From UHGV virus genome UHGV-1812412: DNA of 13,700 bases. The stretch is one strand, 5' to 3'. Both the position numbers and the translations under genes were made by a program. The stretch is from a virus. The notes beneath the pieces were generated by a model. It was not told the DNA's origin. It saw nothing but the letters and a program-made list of their open reading frames with translations, and did not search any database. Below, piece after piece: positions 1 to 13,700 of this stretch; the first letter of the stretch is position 1, and every line of letters starts with the position of its first letter.

Positions 1-660
1 AAGGCTAAAGAGTTCGGCATGACCGGATCAGAGGTTGGCGAGCTTATCGGGAAACTGGTAGTCGGCTTAGCTGGTCTGAAAGTTATTACTACACTGCTTT
101 CCCCTCTAACCGGATTTGTTTCACTTGTCACCCAACTGATTTCTCTGATAGGCAAGATTCCAGGTCTGGGCAATCTCGTTAAGGGTGCTGGCGGGGCAGT
201 CGCTGGAAGCCCAACAACAGCATTAGCCGCTGGCAGTGCCGCAGGTGTGGGTGTTGGTGTCGCTGGCGCACTGGGCGCTAAGACGGTAGGCGAGAAGTTC
301 AGAGGATGGATGCAAAGCAAGGCTGATCAGTTCGGGGAGTGGGCTAAATCTAAAGGCCTGCTTAGCGATGAACAGGACGCTATGACCAAACCGGGGGCCT
401 ATAACCATAGCTACATCAACAAGGGGGCTTCCTTTAATCCATATCCAACCATTAGCCCGTCACGTCCTACTCCTAGCACTGGTACGGCTATTCAGAATGG
501 TGGCTATCAACCTGCTCAGGTTAATGTGGTGCCTCAAGGTGAGATTTCCGGCAAATGGGAGATAACTATTGATGAGGGGGGAATTGCCAGGGTGATCCAG
601 AAGGAAGTCAGCGATCAGTTGGATTGGAAAGCCACACAGGAATCTAACCAGCTTTTCTAA
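1..660 (+). CDS. Partial CDS (5' end outside window): C-terminal part of a phage tail tape-measure-like protein
   Basis: Frame 1 is open from position 1 (AAG GCT AAA GAG TTC GGC precede the first ATG at 19), stop TAA at 658-660. Product has two hydrophobic helices followed by a Gly/Ala-rich segment (GAGGAVAGSPTTALAAGSAAGVGVGVAGALGA), a pattern typical of tape measure C-terminal regions. Assignment is by composition only. Confidence 0.45.
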   Translation, partial: KAKEFGMTGSEVGELIGKLVVGLAGLKVITTLLSPLTGFVSLVTQLISLIGKIPGLGNLVKGAGGAVAGSPTTALAAGSAAGVGVGVAGALGAKTVGEKFRGWMQSKADQFGEWAKSKGLLSDEQDAMTKPGAYNHSYINKGASFNPYPTISPSRPTPSTGTAIQNGGYQPAQVNVVPQGEISGKWEITIDEGGIARVIQKEVSDQLDWKATQESNQLF

Positions 661-768
661 TGTCCACTCTGTGGATTTGAGTTCTACTCAAACCTGCATA
701 GCAGGCACTAATATTGTGATCTAAATCAATAAGTTAGCCTGACCGGATAAACTCCAGGCAAGAAAAAA

Positions 769-793
769 GCCCCTAAGTGTTAACAAAGGGGCT
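769..793 (-). terminator. Hairpin terminator oriented for minus-strand transcripts
   Basis: GCCCC (769-773) pairs with GGGGC (788-792) around a 14-nt loop; an A-tract at 762-768 on the + strand gives a U-tract after the hairpin on the - strand. Lies about 435 nt downstream of the last minus-strand gene. Confidence 0.45.
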
Positions 794-824
794 CTTCTCC
801 GGTATCCTTTTGATGCGGGGCAAA

Positions 825-870
825 ACCTGCTAACAAAAATCAACCTCTCGCGAGACTAATGTTAGCAGGT
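825..870. repeat. Perfect 11-bp inverted repeat (ACCTGCTAACA / TGTTAGCAGGT) with a 24-nt spacer that contains the palindrome TCTCGCGAGA
   Basis: Read directly: 825-835 is the exact reverse complement of 860-870; nested palindrome at 845-854. Confidence 0.7.
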
Positions 871-1227
871 TGCCGGAAGGTAAGTCAACTCCGGCCTATA
901 AACCTTAAAGCGACTATAAAATCGCCCCGCCAATTGTGATGATCCGACCTTTGAGGCGGGTCCGGTGCCCAGGGGGTGCAGTGATGCACAAACCAGGCAA
1001 CGATAAACAGGCTAACAGTGATAGCGGCGCTCAATCAGCGCACTAAATCCTAACCAGTCCGGGAAAGAGGCTGGCTCTATCGACCGCTCATGCACGGGAC
1101 AATGCATACCTGATAAAGGATTCTCACAAGGGACCAATCGCGAGAAAAGAAGTGGAAAGGGGCTGATTTGTGGTGTATCACTACGGCCTCAAAAGAACAC
1201 TATTGTCTTTTTTAAGCCGGACCGTGA

Positions 1228-1686
1228 TTAGCCTCTCCCCACATTTGACCAATATTTGATTGCACCGATCAAATCATCATAGTGGCGCATGGCATCATTG
1301 AAGCCTTTATAGCTTGCCCATTGTGGGGAAACCTTGTTATTGCTGAATTGCCCACTAATCAGGATAGTCTCCAAAATGTCGGCGTATCGCTTGCCAATTC
1401 GCTTTCTGACGGCCTCAGAGCTCCCACCCTTTACGATTGCATTAATCAGGGCTTTTGTGTGTCTCAGGCTCTCATAGAGCATTGCAGCGTGGGCAGATTC
1501 CATAAAGGAGCGCTTAGGCAGATCACCCCACCCCTCAGAATGAATTGCTGCCAGTGTGGCGTAATTCAGGCCGCTATAGTGCTTTCCGTCATCCCAGCCA
1601 ACCGCTACACCTTCCATCTGTGAGAGCTCTTTATGCAGCTTATCCATCATGCGCTTGTCTATGGTGCAACGGACTTTCGGACTCAT
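1228..1686 (-). CDS. Hypothetical phage-associated protein, 152 aa
   Basis: Intact ORF; its ATG (1686..1684) overlaps the stop of the upstream gene in an ATGA arrangement (translational coupling); GGAGA 7 nt upstream. No family recognised. Confidence 0.55.
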   Translation of the reverse strand: MSPKVRCTIDKRMMDKLHKELSQMEGVAVGWDDGKHYSGLNYATLAAIHSEGWGDLPKRSFMESAHAAMLYESLRHTKALINAIVKGGSSEAVRKRIGKRYADILETILISGQFSNNKVSPQWASYKGFNDAMRHYDDLIGAIKYWSNVGRG

Positions 1687-2513
1687 TTGTTGATCTCCGT
1701 GATGTCATCGAGCAACATGTTGGCCTTATCAATCATCGTTTCGTGGAACTCATTCGACACAACAGACTTATCACCTGCGGCAATCTTTCCAGCAGCCTCT
1801 CCCTGTGCATATTCCCCGCGATGCTTAGCCCTGGTTGATTTCGTAGCAGCGTTGCCAGCGTTGCTACCCTCTTTAGCACTATTAACAGCACCCTTTTGCT
1901 GTGTTTTATTCACCTTCTTACTGTTAGTGAAAACTCCGGCATTTTCGACCATCTTCACCTTGAAGGTGCGGAATTCTTCAAAAGTGCAATCAATAGTGAT
2001 GCAGTCACCAGAGGAAGAGCTACGCTTAACTTCACATTTCGTCATGATGAAGTTCTCAAGGAGTCCGGCATCTTCACTTACCAGGCTAACAAGCTGGCGC
2101 TTGTCTCTCATTTCTATAAGTGCCTGAACAGCGGCGGCAGGGCGCATAGATTCACGGGGATTATCTGGATCAGTGTTCCGGTCGATGTAGTTCTCTTTCC
2201 GGATGATATGAGGGGAAGAGGTAATAATGCCCGTAAAGCTGACAGATTTATCTTTAATGACGGCATGGTCTGACATGGTGGTGCCATCCTCGACCGCATA
2301 GCTCGATTTCTCAACAGGGAACGAATAGCTGACATCAGAGATAGAGTCAAAGAAGATAGCCACATTATCGGTATAGTTGAAGCCATCCATTATATTTTTG
2401 TTTTGTGAATATCCCCCACACATAACAGTGAATGCAGGAGATCTCGACTCAGCTTGTTTTGCAGCTGTCAGAGCATCACTAGCCATAGTAAACATGCCTC
2501 CAAATTGGTCCAC
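1683..2513 (-). CDS. Hypothetical protein, 276 aa, with a Lys/Ala/Gly-rich low-complexity C-terminal region
   Basis: Intact ORF coupled to the downstream gene. The first ATG at 2513 has no usable Shine-Dalgarno; an in-frame ATG at 2486 has GGAGG 10 nt upstream and may be the true start. No family recognised. Confidence 0.55.
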   Translation of the reverse strand: MDQFGGMFTMASDALTAAKQAESRSPAFTVMCGGYSQNKNIMDGFNYTDNVAIFFDSISDVSYSFPVEKSSYAVEDGTTMSDHAVIKDKSVSFTGIITSSPHIIRKENYIDRNTDPDNPRESMRPAAAVQALIEMRDKRQLVSLVSEDAGLLENFIMTKCEVKRSSSSGDCITIDCTFEEFRTFKVKMVENAGVFTNSKKVNKTQQKGAVNSAKEGSNAGNAATKSTRAKHRGEYAQGEAAGKIAAGDKSVVSNEFHETMIDKANMLLDDITEINK

Positions 2514-2645: not shown

Positions 2646-2897
2646 TTATTTTGCAAAACGGTTATGGGCATTCAGGGCTTTTTTGCGGTCCTGGGCTTGT
2701 TTGCGTGCAATAAAATGTTCGAAAGTCTCGGCCCAGGTGCATTTATTATATTCACGGTACTTATGCATAGCCTGGCGGCTAACGTCATAGCAGGCGGCAA
2801 ATGTGGAGATACGCAGAAATTCCGGCAGATCCTCGTCATCGATATGGATAATATCAAAAGGCACGTCGTCACGGTCGCCGTATAAAACAATTTTCAT
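2646..2897 (-). CDS. Small protein, 83 aa, possible helix-turn-helix DNA-binding protein
   Basis: ORF track starts at a GTG at 2906; the in-frame ATG at 2897 has GAGGTG 6 nt upstream. Segment ISTFAACYDVSRQAMHKY resembles an HTH. Function not established. Confidence 0.5.
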   Translation of the reverse strand: MKIVLYGDRDDVPFDIIHIDDEDLPEFLRISTFAACYDVSRQAMHKYREYNKCTWAETFEHFIARKQAQDRKKALNAHNRFAK

Positions 2898-3010: not shown

Positions 3011-4054
3011 TTATTTAGCCTTGGCTTTTGCCAGAGCAGCGGCGGCGGAGTTACTAACACTCACTTTAACCACAACCTCAGGCATCATGTTCATGAAAGC
3101 ATAAGAGGATTCAATGAAGATTTCTCGTTTACCTCTGGACTCTTCCATATACATGAAAGCTTCACGTGCAGCGCCGTTTGCAAGCTTCAGGTTGCGAGCG
3201 CAAGGGCCGAAAAATTGAGTATAAACGCCCACCATATCGCCTAACGCATGTGGCTGGAATTGTGGGACCAGATAAGCAGTATTCTCTGGCAGACTATCCA
3301 TTTGCACCACACGCAGAGCTAAGCCCGGAATGCGGAAGGTCGGGAAGCCCGGCAGAATATCCTCAGGGAACATCAGACCTTTATCGGTAATATTCTGATT
3401 GCCGAACAACAGCACTTTACGGAGCAGTTCATCAGTCTGAATAGCGGCGAACACCTCAGCACGGCAGAACAGGGTGAAACCACGCAGAGCGCGAACGACA
3501 CCACGCTGTTTAACCTTGCTCAGTGCAACCAGGTCCTGCAGTTGTTTGAGAATATCTTGAGCTAGATCCATTTCAGAGGTGGACTGTTCCACGCCCAGCA
3601 GTTCGCACACATTCAGCTCTTTACCCTTGGTGAGGATAATTTTGTTCTCAAAGAGAGCAAGCTGGCGTGCTTCTTCGTGGGTCTGGCGTAAGCCTTCGCC
3701 CAGTTGAATAACACGACGAGCGGTTACAGACTCTAAATTCTCTTCGGAATCTTTGCCCGGAACACGGATACCTTGCCAGTCAGAAGGATAAATAGCACTT
3801 GATGCGGCAGTGAATGCCATATCACCCGTGCCCGTTTCACGCTCATCTGCGGTAATGGTCGCCATCTGTTCACCGTAGCGCGGATACTGACCGAAAGCGG
3901 TTTGTTTCACCTGGCGAACTTTGTCATATTCAAATTTAAAGGTATTGCACAGAGCAGTAGTGTTGAAGATATCCATTGCTGAAATAATCTGGTTATCCAG
4001 CGGGATGTCTTTAATCAAGCCACACAGATCGCGGACTTCGAATTCTTTTTTCAT
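3011..4054 (-). CDS. Putative phage major capsid protein (lambda gpE-like), 347 aa
   Basis: Long ORF; ATG at 4054 with GGAGG 6 nt upstream (ORF track begins at a TTG at 4060). N-terminal MDIFNTTALCNTFKFEYD and C-terminal IESSYAFMNMMPEVVVKVSV resemble lambda gpE (TTAQLL...KFKFD; MIQSAPLMLLADPDEFVSV) as recalled from memory, not search-verified. Followed by a strong terminator, as expected for a highly expressed capsid gene. Confidence 0.55.
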   Translation of the reverse strand: MKKEFEVRDLCGLIKDIPLDNQIISAMDIFNTTALCNTFKFEYDKVRQVKQTAFGQYPRYGEQMATITADERETGTGDMAFTAASSAIYPSDWQGIRVPGKDSEENLESVTARRVIQLGEGLRQTHEEARQLALFENKIILTKGKELNVCELLGVEQSTSEMDLAQDILKQLQDLVALSKVKQRGVVRALRGFTLFCRAEVFAAIQTDELLRKVLLFGNQNITDKGLMFPEDILPGFPTFRIPGLALRVVQMDSLPENTAYLVPQFQPHALGDMVGVYTQFFGPCARNLKLANGAAREAFMYMEESRGKREIFIESSYAFMNMMPEVVVKVSVSNSAAAALAKAKAK

Positions 4055-4065: not shown

Positions 4066-4401
4066 TTATTGTGCAACACGCAAATCGCCATTGCTGGCAG
4101 CGATAACAGCGGCTAAGCCTTCTTTATCCACGTAGGCCGGATTGATATAACAGCCCTTGTTGGCAACAACGATAAAAGCATCACCAACCTCAGCACGTTC
4201 TACAACCAGCAGCGGAGTTTTATCGGTGTGCGTTTCTTTAACGAAGGTCTCAACCTCGCCAGCCTCAGTCACCACAACAACAGTGCCAGCCGGAATCTCA
4301 GCTTTAACTTTGTTTTTAATTTCAACGTCGCGAATACTAAATTGCTCATCTGCGGCGTATGAAATGATGTGTCCGCGTGTGCGGATAGTCATATCTCTCA
4401 T
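4066..4401 (-). CDS. Putative head decoration / capsid accessory protein, 111 aa
   Basis: ORF ends 11 nt before the capsid start; AGGTGA 6 nt upstream of its ATG. Size and position directly upstream of the capsid gene fit a decoration or cement protein. Function is by context only. Confidence 0.45.
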   Translation of the reverse strand: MRDMTIRTRGHIISYAADEQFSIRDVEIKNKVKAEIPAGTVVVVTEAGEVETFVKETHTDKTPLLVVERAEVGDAFIVVANKGCYINPAYVDKEGLAAVIAASNGDLRVAQ

Positions 4402-5215
4402 TTGATCACCTGCGATTTAAATTAACTCCCCTCAAAGAGTTCCGGTATAACCTCTCAAACCACGACGCTCGGGCCGAAAAGTTATGCCGGAAATCTAAAG
4501 GGAAATTGATACAAGGAGAGGGAGATAGCCCCGCACCGTCCAAGCGGGGGCTATTCCATATGGGGAAAACCAACAACAGTTGGCTGATAGTTCACAGTAT
4601 GGGTTACTAGAGAGCACTATCACGAAAGACACTCCCCCGAATCAGTTCAGGCTGCGGTCACATCAGCGGGGAAATACCTTTCGGGATAGCTACCCACACA
4701 GAAAACCCGCAAAAGAAAACTGTGTGGATAACTAGCCCAATAGGAGAATTAATCGACCACTCAACGATGATCAGGGTAGTGTTATTTATAAGGCGGCACC
4801 GCTACCTGGTCGCCTTTACTTTGGAGGAAAATACGGCAAATCAAGATCTTCTCACAATGATATTGACGCCATACTGTATATTATATCAGTATTTACTCAC
4901 ATTGTCAACACCCTGATTATATAAATTCTAATAATTAGCGTAGTAACGGTATTTTCAGACCTCTATCAATCCCATCAATACGTCACCCCACCCTTTAGAT
5001 GCATACATCCGACCTACTTTGTAGGCTTGGCGTACTGCCAAGGTCGCAGCTATGCGACTCCTATCTATCACCACTTTATAAAGCTTGATAGATATCCGTT
5101 GATCAATATCAATGTTTTCCGGGGATTTACCCGGCTATAGTTCGAATCAAGGAAGGGGAGCATTGATAGCACCCAACCGAGCAAACAAATCAACTTCTCG
5201 CAAAAGGTTATAGAT

Positions 5216-5338: not shown

Positions 5339-5339
5339 G

Positions 5340-5420
5340 ATGGGCAAAGGAGGCAAAGCATTTTTAATAGGTCTGGCAGTCTTAGATTTTGTATTAATCA
5401 TCATTGAGCGGAGTTTATGA
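5340..5420 (+). CDS. Micro-ORF, 26 aa, single hydrophobic helix (MGKGGKAFLIGLAVLDFVLIIIERSL)
   Basis: ATG at 5340 with GGAGG 6 nt upstream; its stop overlaps the ATG of the following HTH gene (ATGA at 5417-5420). Confidence 0.25.
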   Translation: MGKGGKAFLIGLAVLDFVLIIIERSL

Positions 5421-5677
5421 CGGGAACTAAAGATATTAAGAGACTGAGGGAAGAGCTGATAGCTGAAATTAAAGCGAAGGCAAAGCAAATGGAGATAGCC
5501 GCACAAATGGATGTAGCGGAACAGATGTACAAGATGGTTGAGGAGGGAACGCCACGACAGGTTATAGCAAAAACCTTCGGTGTGGGGATCGCCACCGTGC
5601 ACAGAAGGCTGAAAGCCTATGCCGACTACCACAATATCGAGAGAAAGGAGGATGGGAGATTTAAGAAGAATAAATAG
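5417..5677 (+). CDS. Small DNA-binding protein with resolvase/invertase-type helix-turn-helix, 86 aa
   Basis: Segment TPRQVIAKTFGVGIATVHRRLK matches the pattern of the Hin/Gin-type C-terminal HTH (PRQ-LA-FG-G-ST--R, recalled from memory); N-terminal half predicted coiled coil. No catalytic recombinase domain present. Confidence 0.65.
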   Translation: MTGTKDIKRLREELIAEIKAKAKQMEIAAQMDVAEQMYKMVEEGTPRQVIAKTFGVGIATVHRRLKAYADYHNIERKEDGRFKKNK

Positions 5678-5769: not shown

Positions 5770-6291
5770 ATGTTATTTCAGAAAGATAAAGAATCAGAAA
5801 ACAAAAAGCTTTTTAAAGCAATAGTAAAAATGTTCTTTCAGTACACTGCAGCGTTTTTGATAGCCGGGCCTTGGTTAATGGCTATCTGTTTTTACCCTGC
5901 TACCTTGTTTATTGGCAGTAGCAAGTTCGGCGATGGCCCGTTTCATGTGGATATTGGTTTTATAGATTCTCTCCTGATCCGTCCTATAAATGCTGTTCTC
6001 AATGCTTTCTACTTCCCCACTAGTCTAGAGGGGTGGTCGGTAACCTGGGGTGTTTTAGGCTTAGCATATGTATATTGGTTGGTTGGCTTTTTGTGGGGTG
6101 CAATCTGTGCTCTCCTCGATATTGATACAGGATCAAGCCGTAGGAGTGGTGGTAATAATAGCGGAGCGGGTGTATATGCACACGTAGGTACCAGAGGGGT
6201 AAGTATCACCGCAGGTACCCGATTCGCTGGCGGCTGGCTGAGCATAGGCAAACGCGGCGTTAGTTGGAGAAAAAGCAAAAAACTGTTCTGA
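5770..6291 (+). CDS. Membrane protein, 173 aa from ATG 5770, with at least two hydrophobic helices and a Gly-rich basic tail containing a repeated G-x-R-G-V-S motif
   Basis: ORF track starts at a GTG at 5728; the ATG at 5770 has AAGGGG 7 nt upstream. Hydrophobic helices FFQYTAAFLIAGPWLMAICFYPATLFI and WGVLGLAYVYWLVGFLWGAICALL; tail has GTRGVS and GKRGVS. Terminator directly downstream. Confidence 0.6.
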   Translation: MLFQKDKESENKKLFKAIVKMFFQYTAAFLIAGPWLMAICFYPATLFIGSSKFGDGPFHVDIGFIDSLLIRPINAVLNAFYFPTSLEGWSVTWGVLGLAYVYWLVGFLWGAICALLDIDTGSSRRSGGNNSGAGVYAHVGTRGVSITAGTRFAGGWLSIGKRGVSWRKSKKLF

Positions 6292-7819: not shown

Positions 7820-7911
7820 ACACTAATAGATAAAGAGAATAGATTAATAAAAAGATACCCCCCTAACCCCCCAGGGGGAATGGGGAGGGATCAGAGAGTG
7901 GGGAAGGTTTT

Positions 7912-8014
7912 CTAGATGTACGTAATTGGTACACTTAAAGGTGGATAATATGAGGCTAGATGTACGTAATTGGTACACTTAGAATATTCTAGATGTACGT
8001 AATTGGTACACTTA
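7912..8014. repeat. Three identical 26-bp direct repeats CTAGATGTACGTAATTGGTACACTTA, each with an internal dyad TGTAC-N7-GTACA
   Basis: Copies at 7912-7937, 7956-7981, 7989-8014; start-to-start spacing 44 and 33 bp (multiples of about 11, same helical face). A near DnaA box GGTGGATAA lies at 7940-7948. Confidence 0.8.
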
Positions 8015-8339
8015 AATCACATAAGTTATTGAGTTTATTAGAAAAAGTGATTCACCTATATATACTACTGATTCGCCTCCGCTCATCATTAGTATGGTGT
8101 AACTGATTCATGCTTCGCTTACGCTCACATTCATCTACTTACACCCCCTTATCTGAATTGAACATTCCCGTCCAATCCAGCTAAGAGAATTGATTGAACA
8201 TTACCTAACATCCGTTAGCTAACATTCTAATCAATTAACTACTTAATCACTTCCACACCTTCCGGTGGTGCCAAGTGTCCTGGCATGGTGGGAAAAGATT
8301 CTGCCGTTTTAGGTAGAATTGATTTCCCACAAATAGTAA

Positions 8340-8660
8340 GTGTCGGCCCTTCAATGTCACTCTCCTATGAGGGGGAGAGATGACGGGCCTCCTGTGTGGG
8401 TGAGTATCGGAGCAGTCTGTGAAGTATGAGCAGGCTGTGAGATACGCTACTGTATATCTGCGTAGAACAGCCTCCGCTGTTTACGCTCTTTGTGTGGGTC
8501 CGGCGAATGCGACAGCATGAGGCCCACATGTGGACCGCTGCCGAAAGCTTGCCAGCGCCGGAAGGAGGCGGCAAAGAGTCTCCCGCGCGGTTGTAGGTCC
8601 GCGCCGGACTTTAACTTACAGTTAAACCCTTCGGGCTTGTGCGGGTGCACGCACACATAT
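8340..8660. other. GC-rich, hairpin-dense non-coding island, candidate structured RNA or DNA processing site
   Basis: Sharp rise in GC relative to AT-rich flanks. Local stems include TCTCC/GGAGA (8361-8379), GCGCGG/CCGCGC (8585-8604), TTTAAC/GTTAAA (8609-8625) and GTGCG/CGCAC (8639-8654). The only ORFs are two overlapping Arg/Pro/Ser-rich minus-strand frames without RBS. Confidence 0.3.
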
Positions 8661-8843
8661 ATATAAAGGATACACTCATAAATCGAAAATAAGCGCGATT
8701 TTAGCGCCTACAGCGAGATAAACTATACTCCCTAGTGTAATTGCATTACCTGATGCTTAAATCGCGTTGTAGGGCCTCTCATGAGGTTTGAGTTTAACAC
8801 CCTCCAAAGTTTTAACAAAAAGTGCTCTCCCTCCATTGTGGGC

Positions 8844-9013: not shown

Positions 9014-9059
9014 TATGATAAGATTATAGATAGTGGGAGAAACAGATCCGGAGGTCAAC

Positions 9060-9209: not shown

Positions 9210-9215
9210 TAAAAT
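9182..9215 (+). promoter_or_regulatory. Sigma70-type promoter with an operator dyad over the -35
   Basis: -35 TTGACA (9187-9192), 17-nt spacer, -10 TAAAAT (9210-9215); dyad GATTGT-TG-ACAATC (9182-9195) overlaps the -35 and shares the TTGACAAT core with the upstream palindromes. Confidence 0.5.
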
Positions 9216-9338: not shown

Positions 9339-9548
9339 ATGGCTAAAACTGGACCGATCAGCCAGCTGGTAGACTGGACTACTGACGAAATCGTCGAGAA
9401 CGTGCTTAAAGGTAACTTTCGAAAAACTTCTGTTTATGCATTTATTCGAAAACACAAAGGAGAATATCCACACATTGAAGCGGCAATAGAAAAACTTAAC
9501 TTTATTAAACTTGAGCGCCAGCTGGAAAGATATAAACACCTACTTTGA
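9339..9548 (+). CDS. Small protein, 69 aa, possibly DNA-binding
   Basis: AGGAG at 9326-9330, 8 nt before the ATG; first gene after the promoter/attenuator. No family recognised. Confidence 0.6.
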   Translation: MAKTGPISQLVDWTTDEIVENVLKGNFRKTSVYAFIRKHKGEYPHIEAAIEKLNFIKLERQLERYKHLL

Positions 9549-9584: not shown

Positions 9585-10454
9585 ATGAATATTAAGTCTG
9601 TTTTTAATATAACTTTAAATGATGATCCTAGTATCCTTTTGCTGCCTATGCTCATAAACAAATCTGGACTATTAAAAAAAGGCGACGCAAGGGATATTTA
9701 TATTTATATGTGGAATATTTACTATCTCAACGCTAAAAAAGAGGCCGCCAAGGTGTTCAGTAAGAAGACTAAAGGAAGAAGCCTCAGTCAGGATATGAAA
9801 GATTCCATAAGAAAAGAATGTTTTGCAATTAATGATAAAGATTCCTGTGTGGAAATCTCTTATAAGGATATAGAGGAAAGAGTAGGAATATTACGACCAC
9901 ACGCAGTAAGGGCAATTAAAAAGCTGGAATCTGAAGGAATTATCACCTGCCTTAAAAAAGGCAATAAGCATAACCCTTATGCATCATGGCAAATTAATGT
10001 CGGAATCTTTGAAATGATGGAAAGAGTAGGGATTGAAAACCTCATTGGGTGGGATCTCTTAAAACCATATTGGAAGAAAGAACAGGAAGCAGCCGGAAGA
10101 GGGGAGGGGGATAAAGCCCCGCAAGAAGCCCCAAAACAGGCCGCACAGCAAGCTAAAAAGGCCGAGGTGGTGCAGTTCCCTTCTACGAAAGATAAGAGCG
10201 TCAGAATCGAGCGTAGCTCTCATCCTGAAAGTGTGACAACGTCACCTGTTAAGACAAACAATGAAGGGCCAGTGAAAGAGATACCCAAAATTATAGACAT
10301 TTCTTCTTTTATGGCAGATGAGGAAGATATGCAAGATGAGTGGTGGACACCTCCAGAAAATAATGATTATGGTTATGATCCTTATGGCTATGATGAAGAT
10401 GAATATAGCCCGTTTGAAGATGAATATATAAATGATTCCGCTATCCCTTATTAA
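9585..10454 (+). CDS. Winged-helix DNA-binding protein, 289 aa, with a Lys/Ala/Gln-rich linker and an acidic, aromatic C-terminal tail; candidate replication initiator or regulator
   Basis: AAGAGGT 7 nt before the ATG. Segment ISYKDIEERVGILRPHAVRAIKKLESEGIITC has the classic winged-helix pattern seen in replication initiators and MarR-like regulators; C-terminus DEEDMQDEWWTPPENNDYGYDPYGYDEDEYSPFEDEY. Function inferred. Confidence 0.75.
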   Translation: MNIKSVFNITLNDDPSILLLPMLINKSGLLKKGDARDIYIYMWNIYYLNAKKEAAKVFSKKTKGRSLSQDMKDSIRKECFAINDKDSCVEISYKDIEERVGILRPHAVRAIKKLESEGIITCLKKGNKHNPYASWQINVGIFEMMERVGIENLIGWDLLKPYWKKEQEAAGRGEGDKAPQEAPKQAAQQAKKAEVVQFPSTKDKSVRIERSSHPESVTTSPVKTNNEGPVKEIPKIIDISSFMADEEDMQDEWWTPPENNDYGYDPYGYDEDEYSPFEDEYINDSAIPY

Positions 10455-10542: not shown

Positions 10543-11028
10543 ATGTTCAAATCTGATCTTTCTGATTCCCAATTTGAAAAACTGGTAGCACTGCAGAAAT
10601 ATCTCCCCAGTGATGATCAACCAACACGACAGGCCAAACACTTATTAGTCGAGGGCTTTACCCCTGAATTCGTAGCGGAATATACAGGCGTTAAACTTGA
10701 GAAAGTCCAAAAACTATATAATGAGTCCTGGAATCCACGGTGTCGAGTTCCCCTCAGTGTCTATAACGAAATAGATAGAGATAAAAATGTCTTCGAAGAT
10801 CGCCGCCGCAAATCTCTTTTAATGTGGAATTGCGGGATGAATATTGAAGAGATAGCAAAAGAATTAAAAGTAACCTGCTTTCATATTTGGGGCTTGTTGA
10901 GTGAAATCCTGCCACGTAAGGAGCTTAATCAACGTTTGCCTAAGCCCGGTAGTCGTGCTTATCGCGAATTTATATTCATCTACCGCCGCCATAGCAATAA
11001 AGTCCGGAAAGCAATGCAGCGCAAATAG
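10543..11028 (+). CDS. Hypothetical protein, 161 aa, with two HTH-like segments and a basic C-terminus
   Basis: GGAGA 7 nt before the ATG; HTH-like segments FTPEFVAEYTGVKLEKVQKLY and MNIEEIAKELKVTCFHIWGLL. Could be a small terminase subunit-like or regulatory protein; not resolved. Confidence 0.7.
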   Translation: MFKSDLSDSQFEKLVALQKYLPSDDQPTRQAKHLLVEGFTPEFVAEYTGVKLEKVQKLYNESWNPRCRVPLSVYNEIDRDKNVFEDRRRKSLLMWNCGMNIEEIAKELKVTCFHIWGLLSEILPRKELNQRLPKPGSRAYREFIFIYRRHSNKVRKAMQRK

Positions 11029-11116: not shown

Positions 11117-11560
11117 ATGTCTCAAATCGCTAAATTACTATCCCAGGTTATCAAAGCTATCGACGCTGAAGATTCAAAAGTTCGCCAGGATCTTTTAGAT
11201 GGCAAGTTTACCAATACTCTGGCATTTACCCGTGACAAAGAGCACTTCTTAGAGCACAAACATCCCGCCTTTGTTGAATGCAAGTCCGCTAATGGTGATG
11301 TTTTCTATGTCGATTTGGTGGTTATGGCTATGCGCCTGTGGATGATTCAGGACCTTATGCGCCAACACGGTGATGATCCTCTTATCAGCATGTGGAACAG
11401 CGCCCAGGATGGCTTTGTGATTGCTGCCTTATCCAAATCCATGATTGAGGCAGAAGGCGCAAGCCTTCAAAACATGGCAGATCTCTTTGAAATAAGCGTA
11501 GGAATGATGCAGACCATGCTGCAGGCGGTGAAGCCTCTCAAGCTGGTTAACCTTGAATAA
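11117..11560 (+). CDS. Hypothetical protein, 147 aa
   Basis: ORF track begins at an ATG at 11087 with no RBS; the in-frame ATG at 11117 has AAGGAA 6 nt upstream. Followed by a terminator. Confidence 0.65.
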   Translation: MSQIAKLLSQVIKAIDAEDSKVRQDLLDGKFTNTLAFTRDKEHFLEHKHPAFVECKSANGDVFYVDLVVMAMRLWMIQDLMRQHGDDPLISMWNSAQDGFVIAALSKSMIEAEGASLQNMADLFEISVGMMQTMLQAVKPLKLVNLE

Positions 11561-11571: not shown

Positions 11572-11606
11572 GCACCCTCAAAAAATGGGGGTGCCTTTAT
11601 TTATCT
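11572..11606 (+). terminator. Rho-independent terminator
   Basis: GCACCC (11572-11577) / GGGTGC (11589-11594) stem followed by the T-rich run CTTTATTTATCTT. Confidence 0.6.
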
Positions 11607-11638
11607 TACTTTTCACGTTTATCTAAAAGGATATGCCT

Positions 11639-12022
11639 ATGAATATTGAAGAAATGATAGTTGAATTCGATGATGGTGATTTCCTGGAAGATGGGGAGTT
11701 TAAATACTCCCGTTTTAAACAGGCGTTATTTAGCAGCGATGATAAACCCCACGTTAGTGATCTAAATGACGATGATTTATGTCGCTGGGTATGCACCCGC
11801 TTATATGAGGATGGAAAATATACAGGCCAAAACTTTCCAAATCTCTATTTCAAAGCACAAACATTTGAGGAAGGGCAAAGAGTGAAAAACCTGGTCGATA
11901 AAATGCTGTCAGCCGGATATTTGCATAAAGAATTATTAAATCCTAAAGCTGAAAGCAAGCGCCATTATATTTTTGTGTGGACTATTGGCGATAAGTGTCC
12001 ACTAAGACGCAAAGGCAAATGA
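11639..12022 (+). CDS. Acidic protein, 127 aa, in the position of a tail assembly chaperone
   Basis: ATG at 11639 has AAGGA 8 nt upstream (the ATG at 11633 is too close to it). Product is strongly acidic at the N-terminus; sits two genes upstream of the tape measure gene, as gpG-like chaperones do. Inferred from position and composition. Confidence 0.55.
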   Translation: MNIEEMIVEFDDGDFLEDGEFKYSRFKQALFSSDDKPHVSDLNDDDLCRWVCTRLYEDGKYTGQNFPNLYFKAQTFEEGQRVKNLVDKMLSAGYLHKELLNPKAESKRHYIFVWTIGDKCPLRRKGK

Positions 12023-12023
12023 T

Positions 12024-12209
12024 ATGAATACCTACGAAAAGATTTATCAAAAATTAAAAAGTGATAACAATGCTCCCGTCATCAAGGGCGGGGCTTCTTC
12101 CTCTGGTGACCTCTCAATCGAAGAGCTTGCGGAGAAATATAATATTGATAAAGAGGCCCTGAAAAGGGCTATTTCATTATCAAAATCTTTAAGACAGGGC
12201 GAGGTGTAA
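12024..12209 (+). CDS. Small protein, 61 aa, immediately upstream of the tape measure gene
   Basis: ATG 1 nt after the stop of the preceding gene (TGA-t-ATG); ends 3 nt before the tape measure ATG. Could be independent or the extension part of a frameshifted chaperone. Confidence 0.45.
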   Translation: MNTYEKIYQKLKSDNNAPVIKGGASSSGDLSIEELAEKYNIDKEALKRAISLSKSLRQGEV

Positions 12210-12212
12210 GAG

Positions 12213-13700
12213 ATGGCAATGAAGGAAGTCGCCAGACTAACAAACGTTATTTACTGGGATTCTGATAAATCCAGCTGGCGAAAAGAAGTTAAACGGCTTG
12301 AGGATTATAAAAAATCCTGGAAGAAAGCCACCGACGATATAGCTAAAGCTGATTTTAAATCTAATCAGGCTGTGCTCAGAACACAAAGAACACGCGCTAA
12401 GGTGGAAGAGCAGATTGCCAGAGCTCAGAGGAAACAACAGGAAGCACAGAAGAAACAACGTGCTCAGGCTGTCAGCCGTCTGACCGGGGGCAACAATGCC
12501 GAACTTAACTCTATGCGCAAGTTCTATCAGCAGCAAGCCAGAGAGGCCGCCAGACAACAAAAACTGTTAGATCGTAGTGTTGGAGATGTTCAGCACAGAA
12601 AAGCACGTGTAGGGGCCAACAGTGCACGAATTAGCGGCATGTTTGATGGCTCTATCGTCTCCCAGTTCCAGGGGCGCATTCAAAGAGTTAATGCTGATTA
12701 TGCTAAAGGGGCTATAAACCTGCAGACCTATAATCAGAGGATGGCTCGGCTCAGAGCTGAAATGAAGATGGCAACAGCAGAGGCCGGAAAATTTCAGAGC
12801 AGACTGGATAAACTGGCATCAGGTGCCAGCAAGGTGCATGACAACCTGGGCAAAATCAACTCCACACTAGGCAAGATAGCCATTGGCCTTACTGCCGCTG
12901 GCTGGGGTGTTCAGCGTGCTGTTAGTGGTGCTATGGGTAGCCTTGCAGATCGCAACAGTGCCTACTTCGGTTTAATGGCTCAGAACAAGGATGATAAAGC
13001 CAAGACTGATCAGCAGATGGCTTTTATCAAGAACACAGCCTACACCTATGGGATGGATGAGCGGGAGATGCAAGGGGGCTACATGCGCTTTGCTGCAGCT
13101 ACTCCCACCATGAAGGAATCTGATAAGCAGGCTCTTTTTGAGGCTATGGCTATTAAAGGTCGCTCAGTGGGTGCTACTGGCGAGCAACAGAACAGGGCGC
13201 TTGTTGCGGTCCAACAAATGGCTTCAAAGGGAAAAGTTATGGCAGAAGAGCTGCGGGGCCAACTGTCAGAAGCCTTTGCAGGCTCACAACAGGATTTTCA
13301 ACAGGCCGCTATTGATGCCGGAATCATCAAGAATGCCCAGGAATTCGATAAAGCCCTTAAAGATGGCAAAATCACCCTGGACAAACTTCTTCCTTCTCTG
13401 GTGAAAATCTGGGGTGCAGCAAAAGAAACTAAAGCTTTTGCTGAATCCATGAAACAACCGGAAGTAGCACTGCAGCGCATGAAAAACAGCTTTAACGAGC
13501 TGGCGATTCAGTTTATGGGTGTTGTGGATCCTGCGGATGGCGTTATTAGCTTATCTGAATCTCTGATCTCCATCTTCGAAGACCTCACCACTGATATGGA
13601 CGGCAGCGGGAGCGCGGCAAAACAGTTCGGTGAGGCAGTCGGGGCTGCCATGCGTGAGATCATGTATTGGGTAGGCTTCGCTAAGGGATATATTGAGGTC
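12213..13700 (+). CDS. Partial CDS (3' end outside window): N-terminal part of a phage tail tape measure protein
   Basis: ATG at 12213 with GAGGTG 7 nt upstream; frame stays open to the window edge (496 codons). Missing from the supplied ORF track because it has no stop in the window. Coiled-coil N-terminus, then NRALVAVQQMASKGKVMAEELRGQLSEAF, which matches the conserved tape-measure domain pattern. Confidence 0.8.
   Translation, partial: MAMKEVARLTNVIYWDSDKSSWRKEVKRLEDYKKSWKKATDDIAKADFKSNQAVLRTQRTRAKVEEQIARAQRKQQEAQKKQRAQAVSRLTGGNNAELNSMRKFYQQQAREAARQQKLLDRSVGDVQHRKARVGANSARISGMFDGSIVSQFQGRIQRVNADYAKGAINLQTYNQRMARLRAEMKMATAEAGKFQSRLDKLASGASKVHDNLGKINSTLGKIAIGLTAAGWGVQRAVSGAMGSLADRNSAYFGLMAQNKDDKAKTDQQMAFIKNTAYTYGMDEREMQGGYMRFAAATPTMKESDKQALFEAMAIKGRSVGATGEQQNRALVAVQQMASKGKVMAEELRGQLSEAFAGSQQDFQQAAIDAGIIKNAQEFDKALKDGKITLDKLLPSLVKIWGAAKETKAFAESMKQPEVALQRMKNSFNELAIQFMGVVDPADGVISLSESLISIFEDLTTDMDGSGSAAKQFGEAVGAAMREIMYWVGFAKGYIEV

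What the first reader, a model, noticed from the sequence alone, without database searches (positions are those of the whole stretch)
1..13700. Tape-measure gene fragments at both window edges in the same orientation
The window begins inside the 3' part of a tape-measure-like ORF and ends inside the 5' part of a tape measure ORF, both on the + strand. Either two different tail modules flank this region (tandem or neighbouring prophages), or the locus is a small circular or tandemly repeated element in which one tape measure gene is the only sequence missing from the window.
Basis: inference. Interest (0 to 1): 0.5.

Follow-up and report, generated by a model that had tools for sequence, protein, structure and literature searches.

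The report
One tape-measure gene, circular satellite-like plasmid
The two "tape measure fragments" are the two halves of a single gene, cut where a 13.7-kb circular E. coli plasmid was linearised; the plasmid carries a partial set of virion genes and non-coding elements copied from rV5-like lytic phages, and so looks like an undescribed phage-satellite plasmid.

Summary
Bases 1-660 encode the C-terminal 219 residues of a tape measure protein (TMP) and 12213-13700 the N-terminal 496, both on the + strand.

They are one gene. The source contig is 13,755 bp with an exact 55-bp terminal overlap, and the window is exactly one 13,700-bp turn. The junction is in frame. Both pieces hit consecutive positions of one TMP profile. 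Intact 706-708-aa TMPs of relatives read straight across the junction. Nothing is missing.

The element belongs to a family of 13.2-14.3-kb E. coli plasmids, found in 7 of 5,426 complete genomes and never on a chromosome. It has a Rep/iteron replicon but no terminase, portal, sheath, tube or baseplate. It does encode a major capsid protein, a tail-tube initiator, a neck protein and the TMP. All are homologous to Vequintavirus (rV5-like) proteins (25-51% identity) and under purifying selection.

It also carries a ~420-nt structured non-coding element that is 85-88% identical to a Vequintavirus intergenic region, with compensatory base-pair changes.

Best reading: a helper-dependent satellite plasmid of rV5-like phages. 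This is inferred, not shown. Literature searches found no description of it.

The parts
12213..13700 (+). Tape measure protein gene, 5' part (codons 1-496 of 715)
   Evidence: PF20155 TMP_3 at 51.2 bits (cut-off 41). PHROG 5255 positions 255-565, E=1.3e-134. 27% identical to the Vequintavirus TMP bas57_0018 over aa 4-501. Matches PDB 9cuy_W 'putative tape measure protein', E=4.6e-19.
1..660 (+). Tape measure protein gene, 3' part (codons 497-715 plus stop). It continues in frame from base 13700.
   Evidence: PHROG 5255 positions 579-795 of 800, E=1.5e-41. Relatives read ...GFAKGYIEV|KAKEFGMTGSEV... without interruption across the junction. This C-terminal third is the most variable, mosaic part of the gene within the family.
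1228..1686 (-). Head-tail neck / tail-completion protein (152 aa)
   Evidence: PHROG 222 'tail completion or Neck1 protein', E=7.9e-29. 45% identical to Vequintavirus bas57_0011, which is also PHROG 222. dN/dS <=0.02.
1683..2486 (-). Tail tube initiator (Dit-like; 267 aa by the gene call, and the ORF extends to a GTG at 2513)
   Evidence: PF21821 Dit_like, E=1.6e-25. PHROG 5197, E=1.3e-107. 51% identical to the Vequintavirus 'tail tube initiator protein'. Matches PDB 9cuy_K 'Tube initiator protein', E=1.5e-34, and phi92 gp135.
2646..2897 (-). Small conserved protein p83
   Evidence: dN=0 against 8 relatives. It holds a conserved position between the MCP and the tube initiator in distant relatives. 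The link to PHROG 12108, the family of phage bas57_0132, is weak: window E=0.11, and the L019 homologue E=1.1e-5.
3011..4054 (-). Major capsid protein (347-349 aa)
   Evidence: PHROG 29 'major head protein', E=8.9e-22. 25% identical to the Vequintavirus MCP over 361 columns. The 43%-identical relative P0019 carries PF03864 Phage_cap_E. PGAP names it 'major capsid protein'. dN/dS 0.04-0.14.
4066..4401 (-). p111, directly upstream of the MCP. By position only, a candidate head decoration/cement or scaffolding factor.
   Evidence: It is always adjacent to the MCP in relatives down to 30% MCP identity. There is no family hit, the structure model failed (pLDDT 44), and it shows no similarity to the helper decoration protein.
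4880..4908 (-). Perfect sigma-70 consensus promoter (TTGACA-17-TATAAT with TG), about 480 nt upstream of p111
   Evidence: 12 of 12 matches in the consensus scan. The leader at 4402-4780 folds better than shuffles on the - strand in a rough test. Function not shown.
5417..5677 (+). HTH_7 (resolvase-type helix-turn-helix) small regulator, divergent from the capsid operon
   Evidence: PF02796, E=3.6e-6. dN/dS 0.06-0.16.
5770..6291 (+). Hydrophobic 173-aa protein in a variable 'cargo' slot
   Evidence: Relatives carry unrelated 195- or 236-aa ORFs at this slot. No Pfam or PADLOC hit. The hydrophobic segments are read directly from the sequence.
6400..7600 (.). Conserved ORF-free region of unknown function
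   Evidence: 91-96% identical in relatives with no ORF of 80 aa or more. Found only in this plasmid family. Holds a 24-nt box at 6909-6932 that matches phage non-coding DNA at 23 of 24 positions.
7637..7825 (.). Five 23-nt partly palindromic repeats (ACCTGTTGGAATTTCCCACAGGT)
   Evidence: The core TTTCCCACA occurs 5 times against 0.13 expected. The repeats occur across the family whatever the Rep type.
7910..8016 (.). Three 30-nt direct repeats, probably the Rep iterons
   Evidence: Present only in the loci that share the window's Rep allele, L001 and L004.
8333..8751 (+). Structured non-coding element shared with Vequintavirus phages
   Evidence: nhmmer E=1.1e-16 to MaxTheCat 131600-131887. 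Blocks of 85-88% nucleotide identity in 119 phage records, nearly all named as rV5-like phages. In the phages examined it is intergenic. Hairpin 8345-8389: 15 of 15 pairs kept, 4 with compensatory changes. The whole element has 54 predicted pairs, 14 compensatory. No Rfam family matches.
9339..9548 (+). p69, a small conserved protein upstream of Rep
   Evidence: Gene call and dN/dS 0.05-0.30. A promoter-like site at 9187-9215 matches 11 of 12 positions.
9585..10454 (+). Replication initiator (winged-helix, phage O-like / HTH_36 type)
   Evidence: PHROG 391/678 'replication initiation O-like', E=3e-5. Relatives' alleles hit PF13730 HTH_36 and weakly PF04492 Phage_rep_O. The alleles vary together with the 30-nt repeats.
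10543..11028 (+). p161, a two-HTH DNA-binding protein
   Evidence: Only weak HTH/sigma-r4/KorA/TerS hits. The AF2 model with 8 sequences has pLDDT 78 and shows two helical HTH-like domains, with no significant PDB fold match. Conserved at 46% in the distant relative L025.
11117..11560 (+). p147, function unknown
   Evidence: Gene call. dN/dS 0.05-0.20. No family hit.
11639..12022 (+). p127, function unknown; occupies the position of a tail-assembly chaperone upstream of the TMP
   Evidence: Gene call. dN/dS 0.06-0.26. No similarity to the helper gene at the analogous position.
12024..12209 (+). p61, a small HTH protein immediately upstream of the TMP
   Evidence: PF04297 YlxM/p13-like HTH, E=8e-4 and below the cut-off. 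Other relatives carry a 78-aa allele here.

Best explanation
The window is one complete turn of a 13,700-bp circular E. coli plasmid that the assembler happened to cut inside its only tape measure gene. The 3' third of the gene therefore sits at the window start and the 5' two-thirds at the window end. I put about 0.97 on this part.

The plasmid replicates with its own Rep protein and iterons. It cannot make a virion: it has no terminase, portal, protease, scaffold, sheath, tube, baseplate or fibres.

It does keep a specific subset of virion genes under purifying selection. These are a major capsid protein with an adjacent small protein, plus three proteins that line or cap the inside of a contractile tail: the tube initiator at the baseplate end, the tape measure inside the tube, and a neck/tail-completion protein at the head end. 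All four are homologues of Vequintavirus (rV5-like, ~137-kb lytic myophage) proteins. The plasmid also carries a ~420-nt structured non-coding element nearly identical to a Vequintavirus intergenic element.

Inferred mechanism (about 0.55): the plasmid is a phage satellite maintained as a plasmid.
- When an rV5-like phage infects, the shared cis or RNA element couples the plasmid to phage replication, packaging or gene expression.
- The plasmid capsid protein, using the phage portal, protease, scaffold and terminase, builds capsids suited to the small genome or short concatemers of it.
- The plasmid's initiator, tape measure and neck proteins take over phage baseplates, tube and sheath to make tails that serve the plasmid's capsids.
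- The particles carry the plasmid to new cells at the helper's expense.

Shown here: circularity, a single TMP gene, gene content, homologies, selection, and the shared structured element. Inferred: induction, packaging, particle formation and transfer.
For: Circle and single gene:
- The source contig is 13,755 bp, and its last 55 bases are identical to its first 55. The window equals contig bases 1-13700.
- 12213-13700 is exactly 496 codons and frame 1 continues at base 1.
- The two pieces hit PHROG 5255 at positions 255-565 and 579-795.
- Intact TMPs of relatives L006, L007 and L009 are identical across the junction.

Plasmid status:
- Five PLSDB records and seven complete E. coli genomes match at 91-96% identity.
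- There are 0 places on chromosomes and 9 on plasmids.
- Independent assemblies are cut at different points of the circle.

Incomplete virion set:
- The only ORFs of 150 aa or more are those listed under parts, apart from one antisense ORF (1633-2127) inside the tube-initiator gene.

Link to the helper:
- The tube initiator is 51% identical, the neck protein 45%, the TMP 27% and the MCP 25% to phage MaxTheCat proteins.
- In a 5.8-billion-protein search, closer tube-initiator homologues lie only on small contigs. Contigs of 91-138 kb appear at about 46% identity.
- The non-coding element is shared with 119 phage records, nearly all named as rV5-like phages, at 85-88% identity. That is far above the similarity of the coding regions.
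- Its stems keep pairing through compensatory changes.
- GC content is 44.7%, against 43.6% for the phage.

Function retained:
- dN/dS is 0-0.31 for every gene against 8 relatives.
- The module p111-MCP-p83-tube initiator-neck keeps its order (neck gene not seen at 30%) at 43% and 30% MCP identity.
- The initiator-TMP-neck triad recurs in a second class of ~19-20-kb E. coli elements.

Concept precedent:
- Satellite-plasmids were described in Vibrio (PMC13230959).
Against: - There is no experimental or read-level evidence of induction, encapsidation or transfer.
- The element was not found in IMG/VR viral contigs by exact-peptide scan.
- No terminase small subunit or other packaging-redirection gene was identified. 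p161 gave only insignificant HTH/sigma-like matches.
- The shared non-coding element is absent from 2 of 9 full-length relatives (L002, L005), and its first hairpin is present in only 3. It may therefore not be essential.
- The capsid and tape measure proteins are only 25-27% identical to the phage proteins, so compatibility with the phage portal, scaffold and baseplate is unproven.
- The plasmid TMP (715 aa) is only about 8% shorter than the phage's (778 aa), so a large change in tail length is not implied.
- A perfect sigma-70 promoter upstream of the capsid operon fits host-driven, possibly repressed, expression rather than obviously phage-driven expression.
Confidence: 0.6

Rival explanations
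1. Anti-phage defence plasmid without transfer of its own. The diverged capsid, tube-initiator, tape-measure and neck proteins act as dominant-negative decoys that poison Vequintavirus head and tail assembly. The shared RNA or cis element senses or titrates a phage factor. The plasmid gains by protecting the host population rather than by being packaged.
For: - The same homologies and selection apply.
- No packaging gene was found.
- The element is absent from IMG/VR.
- Blocking tail assembly is a known defence strategy on mobile elements (abstract of PMC11364771).
- A variable cargo slot at 5728-6291 resembles the defence hot spots of satellites.
Against: - No known defence family was detected (PADLOC).
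- Keeping a full-length 715-aa TMP, a complete MCP and their partner proteins in conserved order across lineages as far apart as 30% identity is more than a decoy function would seem to need.
- Known satellites combine interference with transfer, so this rival overlaps the main model rather than excluding it.
Confidence: 0.2
2. Decaying remnant of a phage-plasmid or defective prophage that replicates as a plasmid. Its leftover structural genes have no present function.
For: - The set of virion genes is partial.
- Only 63% of the sequence is coding, with three long ORF-free stretches.
- The family is rare, at 7 of 5,426 complete genomes.
Against: - Every gene is under purifying selection. For example, the neck protein has dN <=0.003 at dS up to 0.15.
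- Size and gene order are constant at 13.2-14.3 kb in dozens of independent assemblies.
- The module is conserved in relatives at 30-43% MCP identity.
- The ORF-free regions are as conserved as the genes.
Confidence: 0.08
3. Two separate tail modules, from tandem or neighbouring prophages, flank the region.
For: Only the appearance of TMP fragments at both window edges.
Against: - The contig has a 55-bp end overlap, the junction is in frame, and the profile coverage is complementary.
- Relatives have a single TMP.
- There is no chromosomal match in 5,426 E. coli genomes.
Confidence: 0.01
4. The circle is an assembly collapse of a tandem array, either a chromosomal or plasmid multimer, rather than a monomeric 13.7-kb plasmid.
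For: One PLSDB/RefSeq record (CP043822, 39,610 bp) is a head-to-tail trimer of the unit. A k-mer overlap alone cannot tell a circle from a tandem repeat.
Against: - At least six other closed records are monomers of 13.2-13.7 kb.
- No chromosomal copy exists.
- Some copies in the trimer record carry truncated or split genes, which points to long-read consensus errors or a multimer of the same plasmid.
- Either way there is one TMP gene per unit, so the explanation of the finding does not change.
Confidence: 0.04
5. An autonomous miniature tailed phage whose portal and terminase are too diverged to recognise.
For: Several ORFs (p147, p127, p111, p83, p69) have no assigned function.
Against: No unassigned ORF exceeds 187 aa. 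Large terminases and portals are each several hundred residues long (established knowledge). No sheath, tube or baseplate genes are present.
Confidence: 0.01

Closest known systems
Vibrio satellite-plasmids PISP and cf-PISP (Nat Commun 2026, PMC13230959)
   Same: They are small (11-16 kb) circular extrachromosomal elements with plasmid replication functions and an incomplete set of phage structural genes, including a capsid protein. PISP has a PF03864 'capsid protein E' type, the family hit by the 43%-identical relative of the window's MCP. They are proposed to be inherited vertically as plasmids and spread horizontally in particles built with helper parts.
   Different: - The Vibrio elements 'lack tail genes' and encode a head protease, terminase(s) and ParA. 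The window has none of these, but does have a tape measure, tube initiator and neck protein.
- The hosts differ (E. coli against Vibrio). The authors report no relatives outside Vibrio.
- The proposed helper here is a large virulent myophage, and a helper-derived structured non-coding element is present.
[quoted passage not shown]
   Same: They are satellites that encode some capsid-forming or capsid-remodelling proteins of their own and borrow the rest from a helper.
   Different: - They are chromosomally integrated, with an integrase and att sites.
- cf-PICIs carry a full head and packaging module (portal, protease, terminases, connectors) and steal only tails.
- The window has no integrase, portal or terminase, and it encodes tail-interior proteins.
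PLE of Vibrio cholerae (satellite of the lytic myophage ICP1), PICMIs, and P4 (satellite of P2)
   Same: They are satellites of virulent (PLE, PICMI) or myovirus (P4) helpers. P4 (11.6 kb) can persist as a plasmid, and both P4 and PLE redirect the helper capsid to a small size (own knowledge, and abstracts).
   Different: These satellites use the helper's capsid protein together with a size-determining scaffold (Sid, TcaP), rather than a capsid protein of their own. None is known to encode a tape measure or tube initiator. No sequence similarity to them was detected here.
Vequintavirus (rV5-like) phages and phi92
   Same: They are the source family of the homologous tube initiator, neck protein, TMP and MCP, and of the shared non-coding element. 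In phi92 the tube initiator is a hexamer on the hub that surrounds the trimeric TMP C-terminus, and the head has T=13 (PMC13450770).
   Different: The phages are 131-140 kb with complete virion, replication and lysis modules. The window is 13.7 kb, holds four or five of those genes in diverged form, and has a plasmid replicon.
Phage-plasmids (P1, N15, SSU5 types)
   Same: They carry phage structural genes on an extrachromosomal replicon in Enterobacteriaceae.
   Different: Phage-plasmids encode complete phages of tens of kilobases or more. This element cannot.

Membership tests
Tape measure protein (Pfam PF20155 TMP_3 / PHROG 5255) | Sequence match above the family threshold | tested here: met
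   PF20155 scores 51.2 bits against a 41-bit cut-off on the 5' piece. PHROG 5255 gives E=1.3e-134 and 1.5e-41 on the two pieces. PDB 9cuy_W TMP matches at E=4.6e-19.
Tape measure protein (Pfam PF20155 TMP_3 / PHROG 5255) | The two fragments are parts of one protein: adjacent profile coverage, a shared frame, and colinearity with intact homologues | tested here: met
   Profile positions 255-565 and 579-795 are covered. The junction is in frame. Relatives are identical across the junction.
Circular plasmid replicon (iteron type) | Closed circle with independent extrachromosomal records | tested here: met
   Exact 55-bp terminal overlap. Closed circular plasmid records of 13.2-13.7 kb exist, with 0 chromosomal places.
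Circular plasmid replicon (iteron type) | Initiator protein plus cognate direct repeats | tested here: met
   The Rep protein matches O-like / HTH_36 families. The 3x30-nt repeats occur only with the same Rep allele. Binding was not tested.
Circular plasmid replicon (iteron type) | Partition or mobilisation functions (ParA, relaxase, oriT) | tested here: not met
   No ParA or relaxase hit in any ORF. PLSDB types the relatives as non-mobilizable.
Phage satellite (general definition) | Lacks the genes for an autonomous virion and packaging | tested here: met
   No terminase, portal, protease, scaffold, sheath, tube, baseplate, fibre or lysis genes.
Phage satellite (general definition) | Specific molecular link to a helper phage (shared proteins or cis sites) | tested here: met
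   Four proteins are homologous to Vequintavirus proteins, and a ~420-nt non-coding element is 85-88% identical in blocks.
Phage satellite (general definition) | Helper-dependent replication, packaging and transfer; interference with the helper | not testable with these tools
   This needs infection experiments. The only indirect test, an IMG/VR scan, was negative.
PISP / cf-PISP satellite-plasmids (Vibrio) | Extrachromosomal, small, with a capsid protein (PF03864 or PF05065) | tested here: inconclusive
   The element is a plasmid with an MCP. The window's MCP itself gives no Pfam hit at E<=1, whereas its 43%- and 30%-identical relatives carry PF03864.
PISP / cf-PISP satellite-plasmids (Vibrio) | No tail genes; head protease, terminase small subunit and ParA/RepA present | tested here: not met
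   The window has a TMP, tube initiator and neck protein, and no detectable protease, TerS or ParA.
cf-PICI / PICI | Integrase and chromosomal att site; portal, protease and terminases (cf-PICI) | tested here: not met
   None of these genes is present, and no copy is chromosomal.
Phage-plasmid | Complete phage gene set on a plasmid replicon | tested here: not met
   The element is 13.7 kb with only 4-5 virion genes.
Known RNA family (Rfam) for the element at 8333-8751 | Covariance-model match | tested here: not met
   No hit at gathering scores or at E<=1. No tRNA or tmRNA.

The most novel reading that the evidence does not exclude
This is a previously unrecognised class of phage satellite in E. 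coli. It is a plasmid-borne hitcher on virulent Vequintavirus (rV5-like) phages. Unlike any described satellite, it encodes its own tail-interior module (tube initiator, tape measure and neck protein) together with its own capsid protein. It also carries a helper-derived structured RNA that couples it to the infection. The window's family would be one branch of a large, diverse group of 13-15-kb and 19-21-kb elements built around the same initiator-TMP-neck triad.
Probability: 0.4. Interest if true: 0.8.

Novelty: new variant of a known kind. Interest (0 to 1): 0.62.

Why it matters
As stated, the finding is an ordinary linearisation effect. The replicon behind it is not ordinary.

If the satellite reading holds, E. 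coli carries a family of plasmids that ride on one of its commonest groups of lytic phages. rV5-like phages have a broad host range (BASEL paper). That would have several consequences.
- It would add a transfer route for plasmids currently typed 'non-mobilizable'.
- It would be a source of interference with therapeutic phages.
- It would be the first satellite known to bring its own tape measure and tube initiator, opening the question of why a parasite needs to own the inside of the tail.

Two further results are leads in their own right. One is the ~420-nt structured non-coding element shared by plasmid and phage, which matches no Rfam family. The other is a wider superfamily of small elements carrying the initiator-TMP-neck triad.

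Tried and rejected
- **DNA search of the whole window against 50,697 phage records (megablast):** no match. The link to phages appears only at protein level and in short non-coding blocks.
- **Rfam at gathering scores and at E<=1, and ARAGORN:** nothing.
- **Look-up of the 276-aa Dit ORF by exact sequence:** failed because the gene caller used a later start. Other proteins worked.
- **The search for related loci with the MCP in GTDB species representatives and in IMG/VR:** no confirmed relatives.
- **AlphaFold2 of p111 from a single sequence:** pLDDT 44, unusable, so no fold search was run. BLASTP of p111 against the helper decoration protein and of p127 against the helper gene upstream of the TMP found no similarity.
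- **p161 as a small terminase:** only an E=0.05 PHROG hit. The AF2 model (pLDDT 78) gave no significant PDB fold match (best E=0.45, mostly sigma factors and HTH regulators). The idea is neither supported nor excluded.
- **PADLOC on all small ORFs and on the variable cargo ORFs of relatives:** no defence system found.
- **The 49-nt triple-hairpin motif that relatives share with the phage:** not present in the window at up to 12 mismatches.
- **Non-coding DNA of relative L005, which lacks the shared element, against phages:** no match.
- **Sensitive nhmmer of all window non-coding stretches against the phage genome:** only the 8333-8751 element matched.
- **A whole-window fold z-score scan:** timed out. 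A reduced version with mononucleotide shuffles is only indicative.
- **Literature searches:** one was badly designed and returned irrelevant papers. Searches by accession, by protein id and by concept found no description of this plasmid family.
- **Alternative genetic code to explain the ORF-poor region:** considered and dropped, because the host is E. coli and the flanking genes read normally in code 11.

Full report
**1. The observation**

Frame 1 of bases 1-660 is open from the first base to a stop at 658-660 (219 aa). From an ATG at 12213 an ORF runs to the last base of the window, exactly 496 codons. Both pieces match the same family.
- PHROG 5255 'tail length tape measure protein': profile positions 579-795 of 800 for the first piece (E=1.5e-41) and 255-565 for the second (E=1.3e-134).
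- Pfam PF20155 TMP_3 on the second piece: 51.2 bits against a 41-bit cut-off.

**2. One gene, one circle**

Five independent results show that the fragments are two halves of a single gene.
- An exact-sequence look-up of the window's 289-aa Rep protein returned the source contig, ENA ERZ28576195 scaffold_2690, 13,755 bp. Its first 13,700 bases equal the window, and its last 55 bases are identical to its first 55. From my own knowledge, that is the usual k-mer signature of a circular contig.
- 13700-12213+1 = 1,488 = 496 x 3, and the first fragment is in frame 1. The reading frame therefore passes from base 13700 to base 1 and gives a 715-aa protein.
- The two pieces cover adjacent parts of one profile.
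- Relatives assembled with other cut points carry one intact TMP of 706-708 aa. In L006, L007 and L009 the sequence ...GFAKGYIEV|KAKEFGMTGSEV... is identical to the window on both sides of the junction, with no insertion.
- Closed circular plasmid records of 13.2-13.7 kb at 91-96% identity exist in PLSDB and RefSeq. In 5,426 complete E. coli genomes the element is found in 7, at 9 places, all on plasmids and none on a chromosome.

Nothing is missing from the window. The 'small circular element' alternative is right, apart from the idea that a TMP gene lies outside the window. One record, CP043822 (39,610 bp), is a head-to-tail trimer of the unit. It may be a real multimer or a long-read assembly product, and either way it does not change the conclusion.

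**3. What the replicon contains**

Gene calls and family searches give the following map.
- On the - strand, one operon-like block:
  - p111 (4066-4401);
  - the major capsid protein (3011-4054; PHROG 29, E=8.9e-22);
  - p83 (2646-2897);
  - a Dit-like tail tube initiator (1683-2486; PF21821, E=1.6e-25; PDB 9cuy_K 'Tube initiator protein', E=1.5e-34; phi92 gp135);
  - a 152-aa neck/tail-completion protein (1228-1686; PHROG 222, E=7.9e-29).
- On the + strand:
  - an HTH_7 regulator (5417-5677);
  - a hydrophobic 173-aa protein in a slot that holds unrelated ORFs in relatives (5770-6291);
  - after 2.7 kb without called genes, p69;
  - a phage-O-like/HTH_36-type initiator (9585-10454);
  - three small proteins (p161, p147, p127) and a 61-aa HTH protein;
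  - the TMP, which crosses the junction.

Only 63% of the sequence is coding. No ORF resembles a terminase, portal, protease, scaffold, sheath, tube, baseplate, fibre or lysis protein. No unassigned ORF exceeds 187 aa. PADLOC finds no defence system. PLSDB types the relatives as non-mobilizable.

**4. Replicon features**

Three 30-nt direct repeats (7910-8016) occur only in the two loci that share the window's Rep allele, L001 and L004. Relatives with other Rep alleles (32-74% identity) have different sequence there. This is the pattern expected of iterons and their initiator.

Five 23-nt partly palindromic repeats (7637-7825) occur across the family whatever the Rep type. Their core TTTCCCACA is seen 5 times against 0.13 expected. 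Their ligand is unknown.

**5. The link to rV5-like phages**

Protein searches against 50,697 phage records place the closest phage homologues in Vequintavirus. Against the full genome of phage MaxTheCat (MZ501094), fetched in three pieces, the identities are as follows.

| Window protein | Identity | MaxTheCat counterpart |
|---|---|---|
| Tube initiator | 51% | 'tail tube initiator protein' bas57_0019 |
| Neck protein | 45% | bas57_0011, a PHROG 222 member lying between the capsid and sheath genes |
| TMP | 27%, over aa 4-501 | TMP bas57_0018 |
| MCP | 25% | MCP bas57_0008 |

p83 may be a fifth shared gene, but only weakly. The window protein hits PHROG 12108 at E=0.11, a distant relative's copy hits at E=1.1e-5, and phage bas57_0132 is a member.

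A search of 5.8 billion proteins with the tube initiator found closer homologues (41-66% identity) almost only on contigs of about 13-15 kb or 19-21 kb. Contigs of 91-138 kb appear at about 46%. No phage closer than Vequintavirus is on record.

**6. A shared structured non-coding element**

Local BLAST of the window against the phage genome gave two colinear blocks inside the ORF-poor region. Window 8333-8392 and 8528-8589 match MaxTheCat 131600-131658 and 131730-131791 at 85% identity. nhmmer extends the match to window 8333-8751 against phage 131600-131887 (E=1.1e-16). It is the only non-coding stretch of the window that matches the phage.

The same blocks occur at 85-88% identity in 119 phage records, nearly all named as rV5-like phages. 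In the four phage loci inspected, plus MaxTheCat, the element lies in a gap of ~650 nt between a 'putative transcriptional regulator' gene and a 579-nt gene. It is mostly unannotated. This nucleotide identity is far higher than that of the coding homologues.

The element looks structured.
- The hairpin at 8345-8389 keeps 15 of 15 pairs in all four distinct sequence versions. Four of those pairs change on both sides; 8 of 500 shuffles reached that pair count and 3 of 500 the covariation score, and slid registers gave none.
- A six-pair stem in the second block changes three pairs in a compensatory way between plasmids and phages (GCUGCC/GGCAGC against ACCGAC/GUCGGU).
- RNAalifold on eight sequences predicts 54 pairs, 14 with compensatory changes, including a long-range closing helix. 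Between the conserved helices, plasmids and phages carry different inserted hairpins.
- G-U pairs on the + strand, and the direction of the neighbouring phage genes, favour an RNA read from the + strand. This is weak evidence.
- Both strands fold better than shuffles (z = -3.6 and -4.0). No Rfam family matches.

The caveats are that the comparisons involve only two or three lineages, and that the element is not universal. Block 2 is present in 7 of 9 full-length plasmids and block 1 in 3. L005 has no phage match at the equivalent place.

Relatives, but not the window, also carry one to three copies of a 49-nt triple-hairpin motif that matches phage non-coding DNA at 90,903-90,951. All family members, including the window (6909-6932), share a 24-nt box with phage 91,576-91,599.

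**7. Are the genes functional?**

Nei-Gojobori dN/dS of the window's genes against eight relatives is low throughout.

| Gene | dN/dS or dN |
|---|---|
| Neck protein | <=0.02 |
| Tube initiator | 0-0.20 |
| MCP | 0.04-0.14 |
| p111 | 0-0.17 |
| p83 | dN = 0 |
| TMP | 0.08-0.31 |

The MCP family is tight: 18 clusters at 81-98% identity, about 500 sequences, and the named ones all E. coli, nearly all on contigs of 13.4-14.3 kb. An exhaustive HMMER search found relatives at 43% and 30% identity. Their contigs show the same gene order: small ORF, MCP (PF03864 Phage_cap_E), small ORF, Dit-like, and, in the 43% relative, a 152-aa ORF.

A 14.9-kb metagenomic contig, L025, repeats the whole architecture, including a convergent 725-aa TMP and a ~3.3-kb ORF-free stretch. 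A second class of ~19-20-kb E. coli contigs carries tube initiator, TMP (757 aa) and a neck-like protein in a row.

The conserved core of this wider group is therefore the initiator-TMP-neck triad. These are not decaying remnants.

**8. Mechanism (inference)**

In phi92, a close relative of Vequintavirus, the tube initiator is a hexamer on the baseplate hub that surrounds the trimeric C-terminus of the TMP. The connector and terminator proteins close the other end of the tail, and the head is T=13 with a cement protein encoded just upstream of the MCP (PMC13450770).

The plasmid thus encodes three things:
- the protein that sets the shell geometry;
- a small protein at the cement-gene position;
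- the three proteins at the bottom, inside and top of the tail tube.

The remaining virion and packaging proteins would have to come from a helper.

The most economical reading is a satellite kept as a plasmid. On infection by an rV5-like phage, it would use the phage's assembly, packaging and possibly replication machinery. It would build capsids from its own MCP and seed tails on phage baseplates with its own initiator and TMP. The neck protein would provide the head-tail interface.

The shared structured element could serve as the coupling device, acting as an origin, a packaging signal or a regulatory RNA. I cannot tell which. Simple volume scaling from a T=13, ~137-kb head gives roughly 15 kb for T=3 and 23 kb for T=4, so a 13.7-kb genome would fit a very small head. 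This is my estimate, not a result.

Several points count against certainty.
- No packaging gene was identified. p161 is a two-HTH protein with no significant fold match.
- The element is absent from IMG/VR.
- Identity to the phage MCP and TMP is low.
- The TMP is only 8% shorter than the phage's.
- The capsid operon has a perfect sigma-70 promoter.

The main rival is a plasmid that only interferes with phage assembly, as a defence. It overlaps the satellite model, because known satellites do both.

**9. Comparison with what is known**

Full-text searches by concept, accession and protein id found no description of this family. The one paper that lists CP043822 only tabulates it.

[quoted passage not shown] Vibrio 'satellite-plasmids' (PISP, cf-PISP) were then described. 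They lack tail genes, carry protease/terminase and ParA, and their authors found no relatives outside Vibrio (PMC13230959).

The window shares the lifestyle concept but fails the gene-content criteria of PISP/cf-PISP, cf-PICI, PICI and phage-plasmids; P4 and PLE differ on points I know from the literature and did not test. It is best filed as a new variant of the satellite kind, pending experiments. The library does not hold most subscription papers, so prior description cannot be excluded.

**10. Verdict**

The finding as written is explained by linearisation of a circular contig. That part is ordinary and near certain. The replicon itself is a rare, conserved and apparently undescribed E. 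coli plasmid family, with a coherent set of Vequintavirus-derived virion genes and cis/RNA elements. I give about 0.55 to a true helper-dependent satellite, about 0.2 to a defence-only plasmid, and little to the other readings.

Noticed in passing
window 8333-8751 (+); counterpart L012:31600-31887 (MaxTheCat 131600-131887): A non-coding element of about 420 nt is shared with 119 phage records, nearly all named as rV5-like phages, at 85-88% identity in blocks. It has conserved helices that keep pairing through compensatory changes, and lineage-specific inserted hairpins. It matches no Rfam family and may be an undescribed phage RNA.
   Followed up: yes
relatives L002, L004-L007, L009, L025 (e.g. 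L004:9242-9293, 2312-2362); phage MaxTheCat 90,903-90,951; not in the window: A 49-nt motif of three consecutive hairpins (CTGGC..GCCAG, GGTGAC..GTCACC, CACCC..GGGTG) occurs in 1-3 copies per plasmid and once in the phage's 2.5-kb gene-free region. Stem variants such as CTGCC..GGCAG are compensatory. The window's plasmid lacks the motif.
   Followed up: partly
window 6909-6932: A 24-nt box (GATATTTGAGAATTGTTAGAAGAA on the - strand) matches phage non-coding DNA at 91,576-91,599 at 23 of 24 positions. It is conserved in five of the six relatives tested. Function unknown.
   Followed up: partly
window 6292-9023, 4402-5416, 661-1227: Only 63% of the plasmid is coding. The ORF-free stretches, especially 6400-7600, are as conserved in the family (91-97%) as the genes, and they occur in no other plasmid family. 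Several segments (661-960, 4402-4780, 8017-8400) fold better than shuffles in a rough test.
   Followed up: partly
window 7637-7825 and single copies at 7524, 8323: 23-nt partly palindromic repeats with the core TTTCCCACA (5 observed against 0.13 expected) are conserved across the family whatever the Rep allele. They are therefore probably not the Rep iterons, and their binding partner is unknown.
   Followed up: partly
window 5728-6291: This is a variable slot downstream of the HTH_7 gene. The window, L009 and L017 have a hydrophobic 173-aa ORF, while other relatives have unrelated 195-aa or 236-aa ORFs. None hits Pfam or PADLOC. It resembles the accessory or defence hot spots of satellites.
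   Followed up: partly
window 1-600 (TMP C-terminal third): The C-terminal ~200 residues of the TMP are the most divergent, mosaic part of the structural genes within the family. L002 and L004 show no DNA match over 1-400, and the whole TMPs are 72-99% identical to the window's. In phi92 this part of the TMP sits in the baseplate hub.
   Followed up: no
NZ_CP043822.1 (L018), 39,610 bp: A RefSeq 'complete plasmid' record is a head-to-tail trimer of the ~13.5-kb unit. Some copies have split or truncated genes. It is either a real multimer or a long-read assembly artefact.
   Followed up: partly
L023, L024 (E. coli contigs of 18.6-19.9 kb); many similar clusters: A second class of small E. coli elements (~19-21 kb) carries tube initiator (290 aa), TMP (757 aa) and a neck-like protein on one strand, plus HNH_3 and Lambda_Kil domain genes. 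It shares the initiator-TMP-neck triad with the window's family but has a different layout.
   Followed up: partly
window 8842-9215: Several promoter-like boxes share the word (C)ATTGACAAT (at about 8847, 8996 and 9187). They include an inverted pair, TTGACAATTGGTTGTCAA, at 8996-9013 upstream of the p69-Rep operon. This looks like an operator region.
   Followed up: no
phage collection hits: Eighteen records named 'Campylobacter phage' (MG0656xx) carry the same tube initiator and non-coding element as E. coli rV5-like phages, and most have similar genome sizes. Their host label looks doubtful.
   Followed up: no
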